Positions 206 through 37,476 of a DNA stretch of 40,786 nt are shown one piece after another. A program made the translations under genes and the position numbers. Source of the DNA: a virus (lineage: Duplodnaviria > Caudoviricetes); the IMG/VR virus record IMGVR_UViG_3300027986_000005, positions 1 to 40,786 of that record; one strand, written 5' to 3'. Within the stretch, counting starts at the first letter, position 1, and every line of letters starts with the position of its first letter. The notes beneath the pieces are model-generated. The model saw nothing but the letters and a program-made list of their open reading frames with translations, had not been told where the DNA came from and searched no databases.

Positions 206-652
206 TCAGGCACTCCAGAGTTGCTTTCTTTCAGTCGGGTGCTTATCGACCCTAGAGCGTCCAATGTTGGGGCGGTCCCATGTTCCACCGCCAGCAGATT
301 TCTCAAACTTCCAGCCAGAGGCTTTCAAGGACGCGCCCGATTCACTTTCAAGGATATAAGTAATCACCTTCCGATAACCCATAGCCTTACTAGCTCGAGC
401 TGCGGCGGCATAGAGAATAGAGCAAGCGTTCCGGGTTCCATCAGTGCAGAGCCGCGTTACTTCCGCCGTATAGCCATCATCCAACATGCGAGCTACCGGC
501 CTTCCTACAATCACTACGCCACAAATCTTTAGGTCCGCATCCCTGACGGCAATAGAGAATTTATGTCCCTGCGGAGGCTTATGATGCCGGTGATAGTCAG
601 CAATATACTGCTTAGCATCCGCGAGAGAGATTGGCGCAAGCGTCAGGCTCAT
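206..652 (-). CDS. XF1762-family phage protein (GNAT-like fold)
   Basis: HRHHKPP-GHKFS, GRPVAR-LDDG-TAEVTRLCTDGT-NACS-LY and ITYIL-SE-G-SL-A-GW motifs; start reassigned to ATG 652 (ATGA overlap with the upstream micro-ORF). Confidence 0.75.
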   Translation of the reverse strand: MSLTLAPISLADAKQYIADYHRHHKPPQGHKFSIAVRDADLKICGVVIVGRPVARMLDDGYTAEVTRLCTDGTRNACSILYAAAARASKAMGYRKVITYILESESGASLKASGWKFEKSAGGGTWDRPNIGRSRVDKHPTERKQLWSA

Positions 653-744
653 ATGGGATAATGAGCCCCGAGCCACTGACCAAGAAATACTGCGCCTATG
701 CATAGCAGGATTAGAACAACCCATATTATTTCTCTCGAACTCAT
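649..744 (-). CDS. 31-aa single-TM micropeptide MSSREIIWVVLILLCIGAVFLGQWLGAHYPI
   Basis: TAAGGAG RBS; hydrophobic helix; stop overlaps next ATG. Confidence 0.7.
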   Translation of the reverse strand: MSSREIIWVVLILLCIGAVFLGQWLGAHYPI

Positions 745-843
745 GCAATGCTCCTTACGAATTTACTATATGGAAACTTTAGTCAGACTGCTTCATTCTT
801 ATCGCCCAAAATCTTCTCTCTTAAACACTACTCTCCCATAGGG

Positions 844-1124: not shown

Positions 1125-1152
1125 AGTATACAGATGAAATAAAGTCTGTCAA
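1125..1152 (-). promoter_or_regulatory. Leftward sigma70 promoter
   Basis: TTGACA (1152-1147) - 16 nt - TATACT (1130-1125). Confidence 0.75.
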
Positions 1153-1156
1153 CCCA

Positions 1157-1184
1157 TTGACAATGGCCTAGGCTCATATATTAT
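1157..1184 (+). promoter_or_regulatory. Rightward sigma70 promoter
   Basis: TTGACA (1157-1162) - 16 nt - TATTAT (1179-1184); back-to-back with the leftward -35, forming TGTCAA-ccca-TTGACA. Confidence 0.7.
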
Positions 1185-29776: not shown

Positions 29777-29982
29777 TCTCGCTCCATTAACTTGACGCTG
29801 GCAGGGGCGTACCACCAGCTTATAAACGCCTGAGCATCTTCACGACTCGAAAAACATAAATATTCAGGTTTCTCGATATCTTGCTCTGTCAGGAGTTTAC
29901 ACCTACTTTGGCCTTTGTCAAATAGCTGATGGTCTAGGAGTTGGCCGCGTTCCCAATGGGAGGGATAATTAGGAATTCTCAT
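29713..29982 (-). CDS. Hypothetical protein
   Basis: ORF in late operon, overlapping terS start. Confidence 0.5.
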   Translation of the reverse strand: MRIPNYPSHWERGQLLDHQLFDKGQSRCKLLTEQDIEKPEYLCFSSREDAQAFISWWYAPASVKLMERECQTEDPASIPPRLPKKSASV

Positions 29983-30336: not shown

Positions 30337-30753
30337 CTATGACTTTTCATATACCCCAGCCACGTCAGCCTCCCGGCAAATGATATGGAGCTTATTTCCC
30401 CAATAGAATGTCTGGAAAGAATAACCACCGAACTGTAAACCACCAAGTTCAACTATATCCCCCACCTTTACCTCTGTGGGTTGAAAGTCTTCGGAATCCC
30501 ACATTTCTGTACGTTTGGATTTATCTTGGTGGTCATATTCTTTCGGATAATGACCGGGACCGATTGCTTTTACTAAACCTTTCATAGGTTTATATTCATA
30601 GATGACTTCTATGATTGCGGAAAATACCGTATCCAGAGGTTCTACAATCATATAATCCCGAAGCATCCTTATCGTATGGTCTTCGGGAATAGTCGTAGTA
30701 TCTTTGAAAGATAGTTCAGCGGAATGCCCATGTGGGGCCTCTTTGATTCTCAT
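30337..30753 (-). CDS. groES: GroES/Cpn10-like co-chaperonin
   Basis: R-L-D--IVEP, G-V-AIGPG, EVKVGD-V, I-READV-GV motifs. Confidence 0.8.
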   Translation of the reverse strand: MRIKEAPHGHSAELSFKDTTTIPEDHTIRMLRDYMIVEPLDTVFSAIIEVIYEYKPMKGLVKAIGPGHYPKEYDHQDKSKRTEMWDSEDFQPTEVKVGDIVELGGLQFGGYSFQTFYWGNKLHIICREADVAGVYEKS

Positions 30754-30884
30754 TTCTTCCGGCTCTCACTATATGCCACAGCCAAACGCTGTTTTATATC
30801 GCTAAACTTCTTCTTCATCTTACCATTCTTCACGAACCGGCCTATGAAATGAGCTAGCCCTTCTCCGGATTCTCGTTTAGGCAT
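30750..30884 (-). CDS. Small basic protein, 44 aa (…KQRLAVAYSESRKK)
   Basis: GGAGG RBS; Q--AVAYS motif common in small genes upstream of terminases. Confidence 0.7.
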   Translation of the reverse strand: MPKRESGEGLAHFIGRFVKNGKMKKKFSDIKQRLAVAYSESRKK

Positions 30885-31009
30885 TTGAATTCCTCCAATA
30901 CCAGTTTGATTATCTTACGGGCTAGTCTGTAACCATGCAATCGTTCACCATTTCTGATACGACGCTTTAAGTTCCTTAGTCTCGCTTGACGAATTTCATT
31001 ATCAAACAC
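30854..31009 (-). CDS. Small basic hypothetical protein, 51 aa
   Basis: GTG overlapping upstream gene end; fills gap. Confidence 0.45.
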   Translation of the reverse strand: MFDNEIRQARLRNLKRRIRNGERLHGYRLARKIIKLVLEEFKCLNENPEKG

Positions 31010-31229
31010 TATGGAATCTCAAATGCCTGTTGCTGATGAACCAGATTTCGTTCCTATCGTTTGCAAGCATCATAAGACATTCAGAAGATTCACTTGCATT
31101 ATAAATACCCAATACCTGATAGGTCTTGTTCTTACTGAATCCGTTTTCTAAAGGGGAAGGGGAAAAGATAATCCTCCCTTTATATTCCTCTATTACTACA
31201 GTAAGATTGGGGTTAAAAGCTATACTCAT
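31002..31229 (-). CDS. Hypothetical protein
   Basis: ATGA overlap; ANDRNEIWFISNRH. Confidence 0.6.
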   Translation of the reverse strand: MSIAFNPNLTVVIEEYKGRIIFSPSPLENGFSKNKTYQVLGIYNASESSECLMMLANDRNEIWFISNRHLRFHSV

Positions 31230-31525
31230 ATTTTGGGTTTATTACGGCTCCCGAGGGGCCTGCCGCGCTTTTTCTTGGCTTGTCCTACAATCGCACTAAC
31301 TATGGGAGTGGCGCTCTCAGCTATTACCATTTCTCCTATAGCCTCTTGCAGCCTATCTTGCATTTCTCGCGGAACATCAAAACTACTCTTAGCCCCTCCC
31401 TGGATTTCAGCTATCTCTTTAGCGGTCTCCTCGGGAGTCATCTTTACGCTTGAGATGTTGCCTTTAATCTCGCGCTCTTTCATCTTGCGGGCGAGGATTG
31501 CGTCGTATTCGGGAGTAGTGGTCAT
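31226..31525 (-). CDS. Hypothetical protein with C-terminal AT-hook-like motif
   Basis: KKKRGRPLGSRNKPK; GAGGT RBS; first late gene. Confidence 0.7.
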   Translation of the reverse strand: MTTTPEYDAILARKMKEREIKGNISSVKMTPEETAKEIAEIQGGAKSSFDVPREMQDRLQEAIGEMVIAESATPIVSAIVGQAKKKRGRPLGSRNKPKI

Positions 31526-31539
31526 TTACTTACCTCGAT

Positions 31540-31790
31540 AAAAGTATCTGGCTGGCACTAATTTCTACCGCAGCATTATCTGTTCGTTAGTCTCTGTTAG
31601 CACCAGCCAGATAAAACCATTCCTCTATCCGCCGAAATCTATCTCTCCCTGAAGGAGATTGAGTGAAACTGACTTACCCGCGATTATCCGTTGATACTAG
31701 CGTAACTTTCGCAACGTCTTTTCGGTTACACCGGGTACTAGCTTGCTAGTTGGGGTGACGCCCGAAGGCATGGCCCTAAATCAGCTTCCT
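31540..31790 (-). ncRNA. Large structured late-leader RNA (multiway junction, pseudoknot, long hairpin)
   Basis: Nested stems with G-U pairs valid on the minus strand; cUUCGg tetraloop; no credible ORF. Confidence 0.65.
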
Positions 31791-31905
31791 GAATCTTCCT
31801 CTCCTGAAAGGGCTTACAAGTGCTTTGGTCTATGCGCCAGCGCGGCCAGTAGGCTTCTCCCGCAGCTTAACCTGTTCGTGAGGCTCACCCACTCATAAAC
31901 CAAAG

Positions 31906-31957
31906 CCTTCTAAGTCCTCCCTTAAACCCTCCCTATAACTCCCTTAATCCTCTCTAT
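31906..31957. repeat. Helically phased CTCCCT-like direct repeats
   Basis: CCTTCT 31906, CTCCCT 31917/31929/31939, CTCTCT 31950; spacing 11, 12, 10, 11. Confidence 0.6.
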
Positions 31958-32178
31958 GGGGCCGGGAAGGCGGCTTCCAGAGCCTTAATGTGCCTATCCG
32001 GGACCGAGACCCATTTTGCCACCGCCTGCCGCGTATAGGGCCTACCAGTAAGGGGGTTTATAGGCAGAGCGGCTGCCAGGGCGGAAAGGCTCCCTGAACG
32101 CTTTATAAGGGCTTTCAGGGCCTTGTCCCGTCCCCTCTGGCGCTTAGAGCTGTAGGGGGGGCCGGTTCTCAAATCCAT
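31954..32178 (-). CDS. Cro-like HTH regulator
   Basis: GSLSALAAAL...TRQAVAKW-SVP-RH---LE resembles YdaS/Cro-type HTH. Confidence 0.7.
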   Translation of the reverse strand: MDLRTGPPYSSKRQRGRDKALKALIKRSGSLSALAAALPINPLTGRPYTRQAVAKWVSVPDRHIKALEAAFPAP

Positions 32179-32378
32179 GCCTTCCGGTTGAAATCAGGGT
32201 CGCAAGTCGGGTCGTTCAGGTTAACCATGAACATGTTGCGGTCCTGGGCATAGAGGTAGTCGCCGTAGGGACGGCTCTTATTGGCGCACTGGCCATTATA
32301 GGCATGAGTACCAAGGCCCACGCCGGGGTAAGCCCGGTTCAGGTATTCGCGGTATGCCTTGATTGCGCCTCTCTTCAT
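32169..32378 (-). CDS. Hypothetical protein, probably leaderless
   Basis: ATG coincides with predicted +1; YG-YL---D---F motif. Confidence 0.7.
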   Translation of the reverse strand: MKRGAIKAYREYLNRAYPGVGLGTHAYNGQCANKSRPYGDYLYAQDRNMFMVNLNDPTCDPDFNRKAWI

Positions 32379-32384
32379 GGTTCC

Positions 32385-32412
32385 ATTATAGCTAATGGCA
32401 ACCCTATGTCAA
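32385..32412 (-). promoter_or_regulatory. Consensus sigma70 promoter, leftward
   Basis: TTGACA (32412-32407) - 16 nt - TATAAT (32390-32385). Confidence 0.85.
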
Positions 32413-32458
32413 CCCTTTTAGACCCATTCTAGCCCATAAAATAAAGTTGTCATTCCTG

Positions 32459-32487
32459 TTGACATTAGGATTCCCAGGGCCTATAGT
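32459..32487 (+). promoter_or_regulatory. Sigma70 promoter, rightward
   Basis: TTGACA (32459-32464) - 17 nt - TATAGT (32482-32487). Confidence 0.85.
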
Positions 32488-32515: not shown

Positions 32516-32704
32516 ATGAACAAGCACCTAACCGAGAAGCTCATCAACCTGATGCAGGAGCATGGCTCTATGGAGGTCGCGGGAGCCTTCTTCGAGGCCC
32601 TGGCCGAGATGGAGAGGCTCACAAAGGGTACCAAGTACCACCATGAGCATAAGCAGGTGGCCGCCCTGATGGCCCATATCCAGACCTTTAAGAAGGTCGC
32701 CTAA
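32516..32704 (+). CDS. Hypothetical protein
   Basis: GGAGG RBS before ATG 32516. Confidence 0.75.
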   Translation: MNKHLTEKLINLMQEHGSMEVAGAFFEALAEMERLTKGTKYHHEHKQVAALMAHIQTFKKVA

Positions 32705-32758
32705 TATCCCCCTCGGGGTTCCATAGGACCCCATAGACCAACCGATAGAGAAGACACC

Positions 32759-32932
32759 ATGAAAATCGAACCCACTAATAGCAGCTCGGGTAACTGGATT
32801 ATCTGGGATGGCAATACCCCGCACTACTTCATGCGGAAGTCAGAGGCCGTGGCATGGCTGGCAAAGCGTGTAGGGCTGCCGGGGTTCGCAGAGTTCCGGG
32901 CTAATCGCCTTAATCAGGCTCGCCGCGCTTAA
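32759..32932 (+). CDS. Hypothetical protein, 57 aa (MKIEPTNSSSGNWIIWDG...)
   Basis: Purine-rich RBS; fills gap in operon. Confidence 0.6.
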   Translation: MKIEPTNSSSGNWIIWDGNTPHYFMRKSEAVAWLAKRVGLPGFAEFRANRLNQARRA

Positions 32933-32957
32933 TCCCCACCCCTTAGGAGGAACCGAA

Positions 32958-33155
32958 ATGAACACCGAAGACCATGATTTCACTCAGGAATTGCGCGATA
33001 TGCTGGCGGCTTCCGATGCCGGTAAGTTCGACAAGGACGCGGCTCTAGCTCTCTCAGACCGCATCCATGAATATGAAATGGAAGGCGGTGAGATAACAGC
33101 CCTTGAAAGCTTCCTCTGGGGCGCGCTCACTTGCGATATTGAGTCTGCCGCCTAA
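32958..33155 (+). CDS. Small acidic protein
   Basis: AGGAGG RBS. Confidence 0.7.
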   Translation: MNTEDHDFTQELRDMLAASDAGKFDKDAALALSDRIHEYEMEGGEITALESFLWGALTCDIESAA

Positions 33156-33273
33156 CTAATTCCTCCCCAAGAATCAGGGAGATTAGAGAGTTGAGTTACT
33201 AGAGTGTAGTGCTTTCAGTAAAAGAGTGTGATTCTTTACAAGTTGTTCGATTAATCATTACCAAGGAGTATTT

Positions 33274-33393
33274 ATGAACAGTGGTAGCTTTGGACTTTTG
33301 GCCGTCGCGATTACTGGGCTCAATCTCGCATTTTGGGGCGGCCTGATTTATTTCATATTCTGGTGCCTAAAGCATTTCGGAATTATCGCCTAA
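33274..33393 (+). CDS. 39-aa membrane peptide MNSGSFGLLAVAITGLNLAFWGGLIYFIFWCLKHFGIIA
   Basis: AAGGAG RBS; hydrophobic. Confidence 0.7.
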   Translation: MNSGSFGLLAVAITGLNLAFWGGLIYFIFWCLKHFGIIA

Positions 33394-33413
33394 TCCCTAT
33401 CAGGAGCATTACC

Positions 33414-33602
33414 ATGGATAAGTTGCAACAGGCATTAGTACAGGAACTCCGCGAGACCGCAGAGAAATATCGCGCGGCCCTGGAAAAGATTTCTGCTATG
33501 GACCCGGCAGACTTCGATGAGCCCGCTAACGAATGGGGCTATGCGGCAGTCGCCCAGGCGGCTCAGAAAACCGCTAATGAAGCCCTCGGCTATAAACCAT
33601 AA
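33414..33602 (+). CDS. Hypothetical protein
   Basis: AGGAG RBS before ATG 33414. Confidence 0.7.
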   Translation: MDKLQQALVQELRETAEKYRAALEKISAMDPADFDEPANEWGYAAVAQAAQKTANEALGYKP

Positions 33603-33631
33603 TCCCCTCCCCTATAAAGGATGATATACCT

Positions 33632-33892
33632 ATGAGCGCGAAACAGGAATTTGGTGTAACGGTCATCGAGATTACCGGCGATTCGTGGGAACGGCTTGCA
33701 AAGGATAATCTTGCGGAAGCTGAACGCTTACAGGAGCTCAATGAAACGCTCATAAAAGCGCTCGAATATGGTGCGCAAGAATTACAAATTGCTTGGCAGA
33801 ACATAGAATTGCAGGGAGATAAAATTAGGGCTGGTCATATGCGCATAATCTTAAGTAAGATGCGCGCCGCTATCGCTAAAGCCCGCTCCTAA
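33632..33892 (+). CDS. Hypothetical protein
   Basis: AAGGA RBS; ends RAAIAKA. Confidence 0.7.
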   Translation: MSAKQEFGVTVIEITGDSWERLAKDNLAEAERLQELNETLIKALEYGAQELQIAWQNIELQGDKIRAGHMRIILSKMRAAIAKARS

Positions 33893-33996
33893 CTCTTGAG
33901 AGCGGAAGATTTGGAGTCTTGTTTACAAGAGAGCTAGAGTAACTCCGTGCAAGTTGGCGTGAAGTATTCGAGAGTGATTCAACCTGGGAGAGTGAA

Positions 33997-34155
33997 ATGA
34001 AATTCATGTGCAAAAATGGTCATCTGAGAAATTCGTCTGAACTTGTTGATAATTGCTCTGTTTGCAAAAGAAATCAGAAGCGAAGAATCGAGCGAATGCT
34101 TAAGGGAACACTGCGCCAAAAACAGGCTGCTGAGAAAATCCTAGCCTCTCATTAG
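33997..34155 (+). CDS. Small zinc-finger protein, 52 aa
   Basis: CKNGH...CSVC then basic helix; GGAG RBS. Confidence 0.6.
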   Translation: MKFMCKNGHLRNSSELVDNCSVCKRNQKRRIERMLKGTLRQKQAAEKILASH

Positions 34156-34838: not shown

Positions 34839-35194
34839 GCGCCTTCATACTTCACAATGCCAAGCTCTATGAGGCGATTGTGGCTCTTCACATACGCCCG
34901 CCAGAAATAGGATTCTAGGGAATCAGAGTTCACCAATGGGTCATGCCTACGACCGTCGAATAGGTCGTGACAGGACTGACAACAGAAACACCCGAACGGG
35001 TCACTTGCCTTTATCCCAGCACCCTTCCCACAGAAGTCATAGTTCGCGTGAGCCCATATAGTCGTTTCAGAGCCATAATCACAACCGGGGGCATTGAAGG
35101 TACAGACTTCCCCCTTAGCCGCCTGGGTGAGCTTCTTACTACGAATGTAAGGATATTTTCTGATTATCGGCCTGTAAGGCTCAGTCTTTTTCAT
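34835..35194 (-). CDS. DUF1364 (YbcO-like) nuclease-domain protein
   Basis: RSKKL--AA-GE-C...C....ET---AH...G-G-KA-D......C--CHD--DGR. Confidence 0.85.
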   Translation of the reverse strand: MKKTEPYRPIIRKYPYIRSKKLTQAAKGEVCTFNAPGCDYGSETTIWAHANYDFCGKGAGIKASDPFGCFCCQSCHDLFDGRRHDPLVNSDSLESYFWRAYVKSHNRLIELGIVKYEGA

Positions 35195-36420
35195 GGCACC
35201 AATAACTCATATTGCCCGTTCCATTCTGTCTTACGCTTTTCCATTAAAGCTAGATAGCGTTTATACCCATCGGATTTCTGTTGAGAGAAACCCAATCCCT
35301 TACACCAATAGTCATTCCGCAAGAGAGATTTACATACTCTGCGCCAGCTAGGAGCGCGTCGAGCGGCTTCCATCTCATATGCGGCTTCGTCCGGGATTCC
35401 TTCGGGATAACCTCTTGCCTTCCACCATCTTTCAAACAGAATCACTTTATTCTGGTAGTGAATCTGTGTTTTAGGCGGCATAGACCCGATTAGAAGTTTT
35501 GCAAAGGACTTCCAAGTATGTCCCGGAGGTTTTGTGATTCCTCGATAGCCGTTTATGTTCCCCCATTCTTGGACATACAAAGCGCCACCGTTAGCTCCGT
35601 TGACGCGGGATACAACCTTAGCCCAAGTCTGTGGCTCAATCAGATGGAAAAGCCACAACCCGCGCCTTTGGTCATCACCATAAGGCTGACAGATACGCAT
35701 ATACCCCATCGGTACCCCAGCTTGATACATGCGGTCATACAATGGATTAGACGGAAGATGTTTGTTTCTAGCGTGATAGGTCCAAAGGTCTGCGGCCTTC
35801 CAATCGTAAATCGGGTAGACGTTATACAATCCCGGCTCTACCAGCGAAGTCCACCGCTTACCCTGATAGGTTTCCTTTTTACTGAGTGCGATTGTTCTAA
35901 ATCGGTTTAGGCTTTCATCGGTACGGATACCTACAAAGCAAGCTGTATTCCTTCCCTTTCCATACCACTGACCGAACAACGGTACAAATTCCTCAAACTC
36001 CATTCCCTTATGGAAAAATGGGAAATAGCTTTCATCTGTAATAGCGCACTCAGGAGGGTTCCGTATCCAGCCGTCCTTAGCGTCTGGGTCCCAGCACATC
36101 CAAAACGGCTCGTACACACTCACAGCATTACGGAGATGGATAGGGAGGCATATCCAATAGAGTTCAATCTGCTCACGCCAAAGGTCTATGCACTTCTGAG
36201 CATGGGCCATCGTCAAAGCATATTGCCCTTCAAGGTCAATAATCATTACCCCGATTTTACGGTTACGCTTTTTTGCTTCCTCGCATACAAGGTGAAGCAT
36301 TACCGTCGAATCTTTACCCGCGCTGAATGAGAGATAGATTTTCTCAAATTCGTCAAACGCGAAAGAGATACGCTCTCTAGCGGCGGTCAATACATCAATA
36401 CCAGAAGGTTCTTTTAGCAT
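35191..36420 (-). CDS. ibrA: IbrA/YbdN-like PP-loop protein (PAPS-reductase superfamily plus DUF3440)
   Basis: SFSAGKDS PP-loop, GIR-DES-NR, YPIYDW---D-W, MRICQPYGDDQR-GL, PSWRR-CK-LL-NDYW. Confidence 0.88.
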   Translation of the reverse strand: MLKEPSGIDVLTAARERISFAFDEFEKIYLSFSAGKDSTVMLHLVCEEAKKRNRKIGVMIIDLEGQYALTMAHAQKCIDLWREQIELYWICLPIHLRNAVSVYEPFWMCWDPDAKDGWIRNPPECAITDESYFPFFHKGMEFEEFVPLFGQWYGKGRNTACFVGIRTDESLNRFRTIALSKKETYQGKRWTSLVEPGLYNVYPIYDWKAADLWTYHARNKHLPSNPLYDRMYQAGVPMGYMRICQPYGDDQRRGLWLFHLIEPQTWAKVVSRVNGANGGALYVQEWGNINGYRGITKPPGHTWKSFAKLLIGSMPPKTQIHYQNKVILFERWWKARGYPEGIPDEAAYEMEAARRAPSWRRVCKSLLRNDYWCKGLGFSQQKSDGYKRYLALMEKRKTEWNGQYELLVP

Positions 36421-36806
36421 AGTTCCAACTGCCTAATGGTTGTATTTTTCTCTAACCATTCGTCTAATACTTCCTGGGCGGCGGTATTAGCCGCATCCTG
36501 CTCTTGTTTATTAAGCATGTGCCAGCCGATGCGGGTGTTTTCCTCCGGGGAACCCACACCAATACAACAACCAGCATGACCTAACCAAGCAAGTCGGTTT
36601 GAATTTTCTACCGTTAGATTATGCGCGGCAGATTTACCCCACTGATTAGCCGCTATCCCCATATAATATTTAAATATGATGGGGTCGCGCATGAGGTTCG
36701 CCGCGTTTTTAGCATTTACCATCCTTTCATCGCCCCGGACAATTCGCCACATACCGGCTTTAAATTCGTCCAATTCCTCATAATGAAAATACTGCCGTTC
36801 AATCAT
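36414..36806 (-). CDS. Hypothetical protein between ibrB and ibrA homologues
   Basis: GAGGA RBS, ATG 36806; overlaps both neighbours; E---GMW, W--S--HNLT----NR-AWLG-A-C, TR-GW--L---Q--AN--A. Confidence 0.8.
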   Translation of the reverse strand: MIERQYFHYEELDEFKAGMWRIVRGDERMVNAKNAANLMRDPIIFKYYMGIAANQWGKSAAHNLTVENSNRLAWLGHAGCCIGVGSPEENTRIGWHMLNKQEQDAANTAAQEVLDEWLEKNTTIRQLELC

Positions 36807-37476
36807 TGGAGTCCTCGAATTGAATGTTATCGAGTTCAGAATCATCCAATGTTCCTGGATTCCAAGCTTCGCTAAACTCCCGGTCTGCGAACATCTCAGC
36901 TAACCCGGAAATCTGAGTCAGCCTTAAAACTTCATCGGGGTCCATACCCAACTGTTTACCAATCTTTTCATCCGACCAATTCCGCCTTTTAAGCTCAATC
37001 ACAATCTCAGACATTCCGTCTACCCGGTGTTTCCCGCGTGCGCGGTTGTGTCTGATAGTAGAAGCGATACGGTCACCACGGTCTTCCTGGGAGGGGTTGA
37101 TAGTCACCACCGGAAGATAGCCGTGTACTCGTTCTTGAATATCCTGACACTCTTTCCCGACGCGGTTTCTATGGAATCCATCAACCACACATCTACCGGA
37201 GGTCTCTGGGAATGTAACGATAGGCTGTGTATACCCATCTGCTGAAATACTCAGCCGCAATAATTCCATCTCAGGCGGAGCTACTGAATTAGGGTTGTAG
37301 TCATTCGCCACAACAGAATCAGCCTTTACCCATTCCACGAAATCAACCGGCTCATTCCTGAACGGCGAGACTTCGTGCAATAGACGCCGGATTGTATTGA
37401 TAGCTCTAATCCGTTCCTCTATCTCCAATTCAGGAAGTTTATTAACGCGCTTGAGAATTTCCCCTAGATTGTCCAT
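36799..37476 (-). CDS. ibrB: IbrB/YbdM-like ParB/Sulfiredoxin-domain protein with C-terminal HTH
   Basis: ANDYNPNSVAPPEM-LL--SI--DGYTQPIV, VDGFHR, STIRHNRARGKH, LGMD-DEVLRL. Confidence 0.9.
   Translation of the reverse strand: MDNLGEILKRVNKLPELEIEERIRAINTIRRLLHEVSPFRNEPVDFVEWVKADSVVANDYNPNSVAPPEMELLRLSISADGYTQPIVTFPETSGRCVVDGFHRNRVGKECQDIQERVHGYLPVVTINPSQEDRGDRIASTIRHNRARGKHRVDGMSEIVIELKRRNWSDEKIGKQLGMDPDEVLRLTQISGLAEMFADREFSEAWNPGTLDDSELDNIQFEDSND

What the first reader, a model, noticed from the sequence alone, without database searches (positions are those of the whole stretch)
31540..31790. Pseudoknotted multi-branch RNA in the late leader of a phage with no recognisable Q
Seen on the minus strand: closing stem AGCTGATTT/AAGTCAGTT (31786-31778 with 31675-31667) encloses an ATGCC-TTCG-GGCGT hairpin, an ACTAGC-aa-GCTAGT palindrome and ACCCG/CGGGT. 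The last contains GTGTAAC/GTTACGC, whose loop CGTTG can pair with downstream CAACG (pseudoknot). A 17-bp stem (31613-31545) followed by CTTTT lies just before the first late gene. Several G-U pairs work only on this strand. Known: HK022 put RNAs antiterminate without protein. Inference: an RNA-based late switch, ribozyme or packaging-associated RNA of unknown class.
Basis: partly seen in the sequence, partly recalled or inferred. Interest (0 to 1): 0.72.

Follow-up and report, generated by a model that had tools for sequence, protein, structure and literature searches.

The report
Three-armed phage RNA with twin tips
An uncultured phage has a 430-base gene-free stretch predicted to fold into three long RNA arms, two tipped by the same small hairpin; it matches no Rfam family and likely acts as a protein-bound cutting and control point on the phage message.

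Summary
The 428-nt gap between a Cro-like gene and a small-gene cluster (minus strand, 31921-31537) folds into three long-stemmed domains, A, B and C (z -4.2, -3.9, -6.0). A and C end in the same 28-nt bulged hairpin. The copies are 23 of 28 identical, with one compensatory pair and three loop changes; 0 of 1000 shuffles reach that repeat score. The pseudoknot is unsupported: its first stem has pairing probability 0.008, and 54 of 1000 shuffles offer an equal one. The element is not HK022 put and has no Rfam match. No homologue turned up in any collection searched, so covariation across genomes is untested. 'Late leader' is doubtful: a second promoter-like site precedes the terminase, and 49 relatives have no such gap. 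Best reading (0.35): the transcript from a perfect sigma-70 promoter is likely cut by RNase III in the long stems, and the twin tips likely bind a protein, probably the adjacent helix-turn-helix regulator, tuning downstream genes. Rivals are a released decoy RNA, plain stabilising hairpins and a new antiterminator.

The parts
32385..32412 (-). Perfect sigma-70 promoter consensus (12 of 12, 16-nt spacer); likely source of the transcript
32459..32487 (+). Divergent sigma-70 promoter-like site (11 of 12) heading small rightward genes
32169..32378 (-). 69-aa ORF of an unnamed phage family; 5 homologues at 45-84% identity
31954..32178 (-). Cro/YdaS-like helix-turn-helix gene; candidate binder of the RNA tips
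   Evidence: Pfam YdaS E 0.0086, under cut-off; structure look-alike YdaS, TM 0.65
31537..31921 (-). Whole three-domain structured RNA inside the 428-nt ORF-free gap 31526-31953
   Evidence: z -3.35, 0 of 100 shuffles for 31525-31960; six-frame translation
31806..31921 (-). Domain A: irregular 26-bp basal stem (6+4+3+13) carrying tip module copy 1
31855..31882 (-). Tip module copy 1: 3 bp, A-G mismatch, 2 bp, AA bulge, 3 bp, 6-nt loop
31792..31811 (-). Linker repeat copy 1 (A/B junction), 75% identical to copy 2
   Evidence: family D9; a short two-copy repeat, may be chance
31652..31801 (-).
31689..31731 (-). Candidate H-type pseudoknot (31731-31725/31706-31700; 31716-31712/31693-31689); possible but unsupported
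31636..31655 (-). Linker repeat copy 2 (B/C junction)
   Evidence: family D9
31537..31629 (-). Domain C: 8-bp base that pairs the CUUUU run, 17-bp helix, tip module copy 2; ends just before the GAGG of the next gene
31563..31590 (-). Tip module copy 2, 292 nt from copy 1
31226..31525 (-). First downstream gene, 99 aa, basic C-terminal tail; family found in 1 of 80 records searched (this one)
29894..29921 (-). Promoter-like site (10 of 12, 16-nt spacer) just upstream of the terminase small subunit; candidate separate head-gene promoter

Best explanation
The 428-base gene-free gap after the Cro-like gene is likely transcribed from the perfect sigma-70 promoter upstream and is predicted to fold into three long-stemmed RNA domains that likely work in cis as a processing and control unit. 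Shown: the gap, the promoter consensus, the predicted fold, and two copies of a bulged tip hairpin. Inferred steps: (1) host RNase III cuts the long irregular stems, separating the upstream two-gene message from the downstream message and leaving protective stems; (2) the two matching tips are binding sites for one protein, most likely the helix-turn-helix product of the gene directly upstream, in the manner of Aca1/Aca2; (3) binding shifts cutting or the pairing at the base of domain C, which abuts the ribosome-binding site of the next gene, and so sets how much of the downstream small-gene and chaperonin cluster is made.
For: Three domains fold better than all 200 shuffles each (boundaries chosen after seeing the fold), while three other gaps of the genome give z from -0.7 to +1.35. 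[quoted passage not shown] The tip module scores 20 against at most 17 in 1000 shuffles and at most 16 in 188 genome tiles; expected by chance 0.01; its 5 differences spare every pair. The tips lie outside the long stems, so cutting alone does not explain why they match. Aca1 binds a bulged RNA hairpin with 3-bp lower and upper stems, and such motifs also occur between genes (PMC13551039, sections 19 and 22). A 12/12 promoter lies about 460 nt upstream with no terminator-like site between.
Against: No homologue exists to test covariation. The one compensatory change is not significant by itself (250 of 500 shuffles). Aca RNA motifs lie directly after the transcription start and end about 20 nt before a start codon; here they lie after the regulator gene, and copy 2 ends 38 nt before the start. 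The protein is Cro/YdaS-like and is not shown to be an Aca; no anti-CRISPR gene was identified. Pairing of the GAGG site changes little across the four fragments folded, so a translational switch is not shown. RNase III box rules were not mapped onto the stems, and the host is unknown. Repeats of 20 in 26 bases are fairly common in 3.5-kb regions of relatives; the case rests on the longer match and its confinement to the gap.
Confidence: 0.35

Rival explanations
1. A trans-acting phage RNA: processing releases the domains, or the whole 385-nt RNA, as a decoy whose twin tips soak up a host RNA-binding or defence protein early in infection.
For: It sits in a cassette of strong promoter, small unknown gene and helix-turn-helix gene, the layout of acr-aca operons (PMC13551039, passages). 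A distant homologue of the 69-aa gene also lies just after a TTGACA site in L330 (by eye). The gap and the next gene's family are missing from relatives, as expected of accessory cargo. Domain B is more elaborate than a cleavage site needs.
Against: No target is identified. There is no Rfam match to antitoxin, CsrA-sponge or other RNA families. The 12 GGA triplets counted in the gap do not sit in the predicted hairpin loops. The RNA has no terminator-like site of its own.
Confidence: 0.22
2. Plain T7-style processing or stabilising hairpins, possibly with a weak terminator at domain C; the matching tips are the trace of a local duplication with no partner.
For: Long irregular stems between phage genes are the classic form of such sites (recalled; substrate features in PMC1540722). 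The linker is also duplicated.
Against: The stems below the tips have diverged while the tips are 23 of 28 identical, which points to selection on the tip. The CUUUU run has only four U, is paired at equilibrium and fails the terminator scan.
Confidence: 0.17
3. A protein-free antiterminator or attenuator of a new class that lets RNA polymerase continue into the head genes.
For: It occupies the slot after a cro-like gene, as putR does. No Q is found. The tip shares CGAAC and CGG with invariant put columns.
Against: The put model gives no hit; the put stem-I pairing and stem-II motifs are absent. There is no excess of terminators downstream and a separate promoter-like site before terminase. 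Relatives have no such gap.
Confidence: 0.11
4. DNA-level element: the twin module is an operator or other protein site, and the long inverted repeats act as DNA.
For: Folding z-scores are similar on both strands. A DNA-binding protein gene is adjacent.
Against: The same two-base bulge in both copies makes a poor DNA palindrome. The three long helices need G-U pairs and break on the plus strand. The module does not occur at the promoters; there are only two copies in the genome.
Confidence: 0.08
5. Domain B is a self-cleaving ribozyme or a ligand-binding pseudoknot.
For: A multi-way junction with a possible H-type pseudoknot.
Against: No Rfam match even at E 10 on 461 nt. Recalled core motifs are absent. 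The pseudoknot is at chance level.
Confidence: 0.07

Closest known systems
HK022 putL/putR antiterminator RNAs (PMC9378689)
   Same: Cis RNA downstream of a phage sigma-70 promoter; putR follows cro; both contain CGAAC and CGG.
   Different: put is about 70 nt with two stems and a triplex. Here there are 385 nt in three domains, CGAAC pairs locally, and the put model scores nothing in the gap.
Aca1/Aca2 RNA operator hairpins (PMC13551039)
   Same: Small bulged hairpin with 3-bp stems in an operon with a helix-turn-helix gene behind a strong promoter.
   Different: Aca motifs are about 20 nt in the 5' leader. These are 28 nt, at the tips of long arms downstream of the regulator; the protein is not a recognised Aca.
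Phage T7 RNase III sites such as R1.1 (PMC1540722; gene-level layout recalled)
   Same: Long irregular intergenic stems of about two helical turns.
   Different: Three in a row in one gap, one with a multi-way junction; the conserved part is the tip, not the stem.
UG27 ncRNA arrays (bioRxiv 10.64898/2026.09.22.753630, section 9)
   Same: Neighbouring hairpin units of roughly 120-150 nt with shared short motifs, in a phage.
   Different: No reverse transcriptase in this genome; domain B is not a third copy of the module.
ROOL and GOLLD large phage RNAs (bioRxiv 10.1101/2024.12.08.627333, passages)
   Same: Multi-domain phage non-coding RNA of unknown function.
   Different: Shorter and simpler; no tRNA genes in this genome; no Rfam match.

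Membership tests
HK022 put RNA | Scores on a covariance model of put sequences | tested here: not met
   Model R2 from 6 put sequences: putL 97.2 and putR 54.2 bits in HK022 (near-training); best in window 9.6 bits, outside the gap
HK022 put RNA | Stem I motif CGAACGGC...GUCGG and stem II GGCG...CAAU | tested here: not met
   Only CGAAC (twice) and one isolated CAAT; the others are absent
HK022 put RNA | Lies downstream of an early promoter, after cro for putR | tested here: met
HK022 put RNA | Suppresses termination by binding RNA polymerase | not testable with these tools
   needs in vitro transcription
Aca-bound RNA motif | Bulged hairpin with short lower and upper stems | tested here: inconclusive
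   Similar outline, but longer; the Aca consensus letters are in figures I could not see
Aca-bound RNA motif | Located directly after the transcription start, ahead of the first gene | tested here: not met
   Copies lie about 500 and 800 nt downstream of the promoter
Aca-bound RNA motif | Operon encodes a known Aca and an anti-CRISPR | tested here: inconclusive
   Helix-turn-helix is YdaS-like; no named family for the 69-aa gene in PHROGs, Pfam or PADLOC; no Aca library was available
RNase III processing site (T7 type) | About two helical turns of quasi-continuous duplex | tested here: met
   A 26 bp, B 22 bp; C 17 bp plus 8 bp beyond an 8-nt bulge
RNase III processing site (T7 type) | Proximal and distal box sequence rules | not tested
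   consensus figure not visible; host unknown
RNase III processing site (T7 type) | Cleaved by RNase III | not testable with these tools
   needs an in vitro digest or end mapping
Rfam 15 families (ribozymes, riboswitches, ROOL, GOLLD, antitoxin RNAs) | Reaches a family's gathering score | tested here: not met
   0 matches in the window; best in the gap 11.4 bits, E 9.9
UG27 RT-associated ncRNA array | Reverse transcriptase gene in the locus | tested here: not met
   PF00078: 0 of 1 at E up to 1
Intrinsic terminator (domain C) | Short G+C-rich hairpin followed by at least 5 U in 8 | tested here: not met
   not called by the scan; four U, paired at equilibrium

The most novel reading that the evidence does not exclude
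A new class of phage multi-domain RNA that presents two identical protein-binding tips on long arms around a junction core, acting either as a decoy against a host RNA-binding or defence protein, or as an antiterminator unrelated to put.
Probability: 0.27. Interest if true: 0.8.

Novelty: new variant of a known kind. Interest (0 to 1): 0.5.

Why it matters
Phage-encoded structured RNAs with a known function are few. If the adjacent Cro-like protein binds these tips, RNA binding by helix-turn-helix regulators would extend beyond Aca proteins and beyond 5' leaders. If the RNA works in trans, or modifies RNA polymerase, it would be a new counter-defence or antitermination device. All parts are short and can be tested in vitro. 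The limit is that it is a single sequence from an uncultured phage with no known host.

Tried and rejected
Homologue searches, all without a homologue. blastn of the gap: no match in 50,697 phage records or 72,556 plasmids. blastn and nhmmer on 126 loci of terminase and GroES relatives: best E 0.95. Exact patterns in viral contigs: pseudoknot pattern, 0; single module, 12 hits, 11 in stop-free frames over 100 codons and none with a second copy, of which L135 and L138 fit the module's pairing with a 7-nt loop but have no long stem; twin-module pattern, 29 hits, 28 in frames over 150 codons, none similar at E 0.1. Module model R1: only its two training copies among 95 sources, 0 of 48 whole records, nothing under E 1.8 in 13 more loci, and 1 of 5 further records at E 0.073, which by eye lies in a bacterial coding region. 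Domain B model R3: only itself among 100 sources and 49 records. These models rest on one or two sequences and would miss distant kin. A motif shared upstream of GroES in relatives proved to be a small protein gene. Downstream of Cro-like genes in 15 relatives (16 of 22 loci examined, one of them the window's own), an ORF starts within 4-150 nt and nothing resembles the gap; in L006 the next gene looks like a replication protein (by eye). L328 was a false hit. A third module copy in domain B: not found. Resemblances recalled from memory (16S helix 24, pistol, SAM-II, ToxI, CRISPR repeats) were dropped because Rfam gave no match. Expression: no RNA holder listed. The one DNA run, which may be the source, shows no variants. 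Literature: eight searches listed no paper describing this element. A motif search of 6 supplements of PMC10690425 found nothing, but 3 files were not searched, two of them archives too large to unpack, and the main put supplement was too large to read; these could bear on novelty.

Full report
Context. The window is a complete 40,786-base virus record with direct terminal repeats. It encodes terminase subunits, portal, scaffold, major head, DNA ejection and spanin genes and a GroES-like protein. The closest cultured terminase is 47% identical, so the host is unknown. There are two divergent sigma-70 promoter pairs, at 1125-1184 and 32385-32487; each leftward promoter leads into a helix-turn-helix gene. 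The finding lies in the 428-nt gap between the second of these genes (ends 31954) and a 99-aa gene (starts 31525). No Q-family gene was found.

Observation. The exception is the stem that would form the pseudoknot. It has probability 0.008 in the nested ensemble and costs 5.4 kcal/mol when enforced, and an equivalent option appears in 54 of 1000 shuffles. It is possible but unsupported.

The element is larger than reported. Each beats all 200 dinucleotide shuffles (z -4.2, -3.9, -6.0), whereas three other gaps give z from -0.7 to +1.35. I chose the domain boundaries after seeing the fold, which inflates these scores. Three of the 12 helices of 12 bp or more in the genome lie here, all on the minus strand. 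Plus-strand z-scores are similar, so the strand rests on the G-U pairs and the promoter.

The new feature is a repeated tip. A and C both end in a 28-nt hairpin (3 bp, A-G mismatch, 2 bp, AA bulge, 3 bp, six-base loop) at 31882-31855 and 31590-31563. There are only these two copies in the genome. They are 23 of 28 identical; two differences form one compensatory pair and three are in the loop. The repeat scores 20 against a maximum of 17 in 1000 shuffles and 16 in 188 genome tiles. One compensatory pair is not significant alone, and looser repeats are common in relatives. A 20-nt linker is also repeated at the A/B and B/C junctions.

Conservation could not be shown. Sequence, pattern and covariance-model searches found no homologue in phage, plasmid, viral-contig or metagenome collections, or in up to 126 loci and 48 whole records of related phages. 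Among 50 regions of 2 kb upstream of the GroES-like gene, the largest ORF-free stretch is 428 nt here and at most 182 nt in the 49 relatives, by a crude ORF caller. Cro-like genes match in 18 of 49 records, but in the 15 relatives examined an ORF follows within 150 nt. The first downstream gene's family is found in 1 of 80 records, this one. Close homologues of the flanking genes exist on short contigs that I could not fetch. The RNA therefore looks like part of a lineage-specific cassette, not a general feature of this phage group.

Late switch. In favour: the position after a Cro-like gene matches putR in HK75, and no Q is found. Against: a put model built from six sequences finds both HK022 elements and nothing here; only CGAAC and CGG of the invariant put letters recur; terminator-like sites over 19.8 kb downstream number 14 against 16.4 in shuffles; and a 10/12 promoter-like site with a 16-nt spacer, like four of the phage's other strong sites, lies just before the terminase small subunit. 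A consensus match is not proof of a promoter.

Mechanism. I commit to a cis-acting processing and protein-binding unit (0.35). The stems are long enough for RNase III (PMC1540722). The tips lie outside the stems yet are the conserved part, which suggests a protein site (inference). The nearest candidate is the helix-turn-helix protein encoded immediately upstream, by analogy to Aca1 and Aca2, which bind bulged RNA hairpins (PMC13551039). The analogy is imperfect: those motifs sit in the 5' leader, and folding did not show a clear switch at the ribosome-binding site. Rivals are a released decoy RNA (0.22), plain stabilising hairpins (0.17), a new antiterminator (0.11), a DNA-level site (0.08) and a ribozyme or riboswitch (0.07).

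Papers seen. PMC9378689: abstract, introduction, first results sections and search passages; supplements not read. PMC13551039: passages and sections 19 and 22, no figures. bioRxiv 10.64898/2026.09.22.753630: passages and section 9. PMC10690425: passages and a motif search of 6 of 9 supplements. PMC1540722 and bioRxiv 10.1101/2024.12.08.627333: passages. The layout of T7 processing sites and the ribozyme core motifs are recalled.

Verdict. A real, probably selected RNA structure of no catalogued family, larger than reported and with a duplicated tip as its most telling feature. The pseudoknot and the put-like late switch are not supported. It is a single sequence with untested function. Interest 0.5.

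Noticed in passing
window 1125-1184 and 32385-32487: Two divergent sigma-70 promoter pairs, each leftward promoter leading to a helix-turn-helix gene; they share short sequences around the -35 boxes, and most strong sites in this phage have 16-nt spacers.
   Followed up: partly
window about 30765-30920, minus strand: Match to an unannotated short gene family (about 45 codons) that precedes the GroES-like gene in dozens of related phages.
   Followed up: partly
window 30337-30753: GroES-like co-chaperonin gene upstream of terminase, widespread in this uncultured phage group (380 homologues); possibly a capsid-folding helper.
   Followed up: partly
window 206-748 and 35191-37476: Mom-like gene (weak Pfam hit) and a PAPS-reductase plus ParB-like pair: candidates for DNA modification.
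   Followed up: no
L321 (G032), about 150-620 nt after its Cro-like gene: A different cluster of strong hairpins after a Cro-like gene in a relative; no similarity to the window's RNA.
   Followed up: partly
window 32516-34155: Run of small unknown rightward genes from the divergent promoter, converging on the leftward gene block; possible accessory or anti-defence cassette.
   Followed up: no
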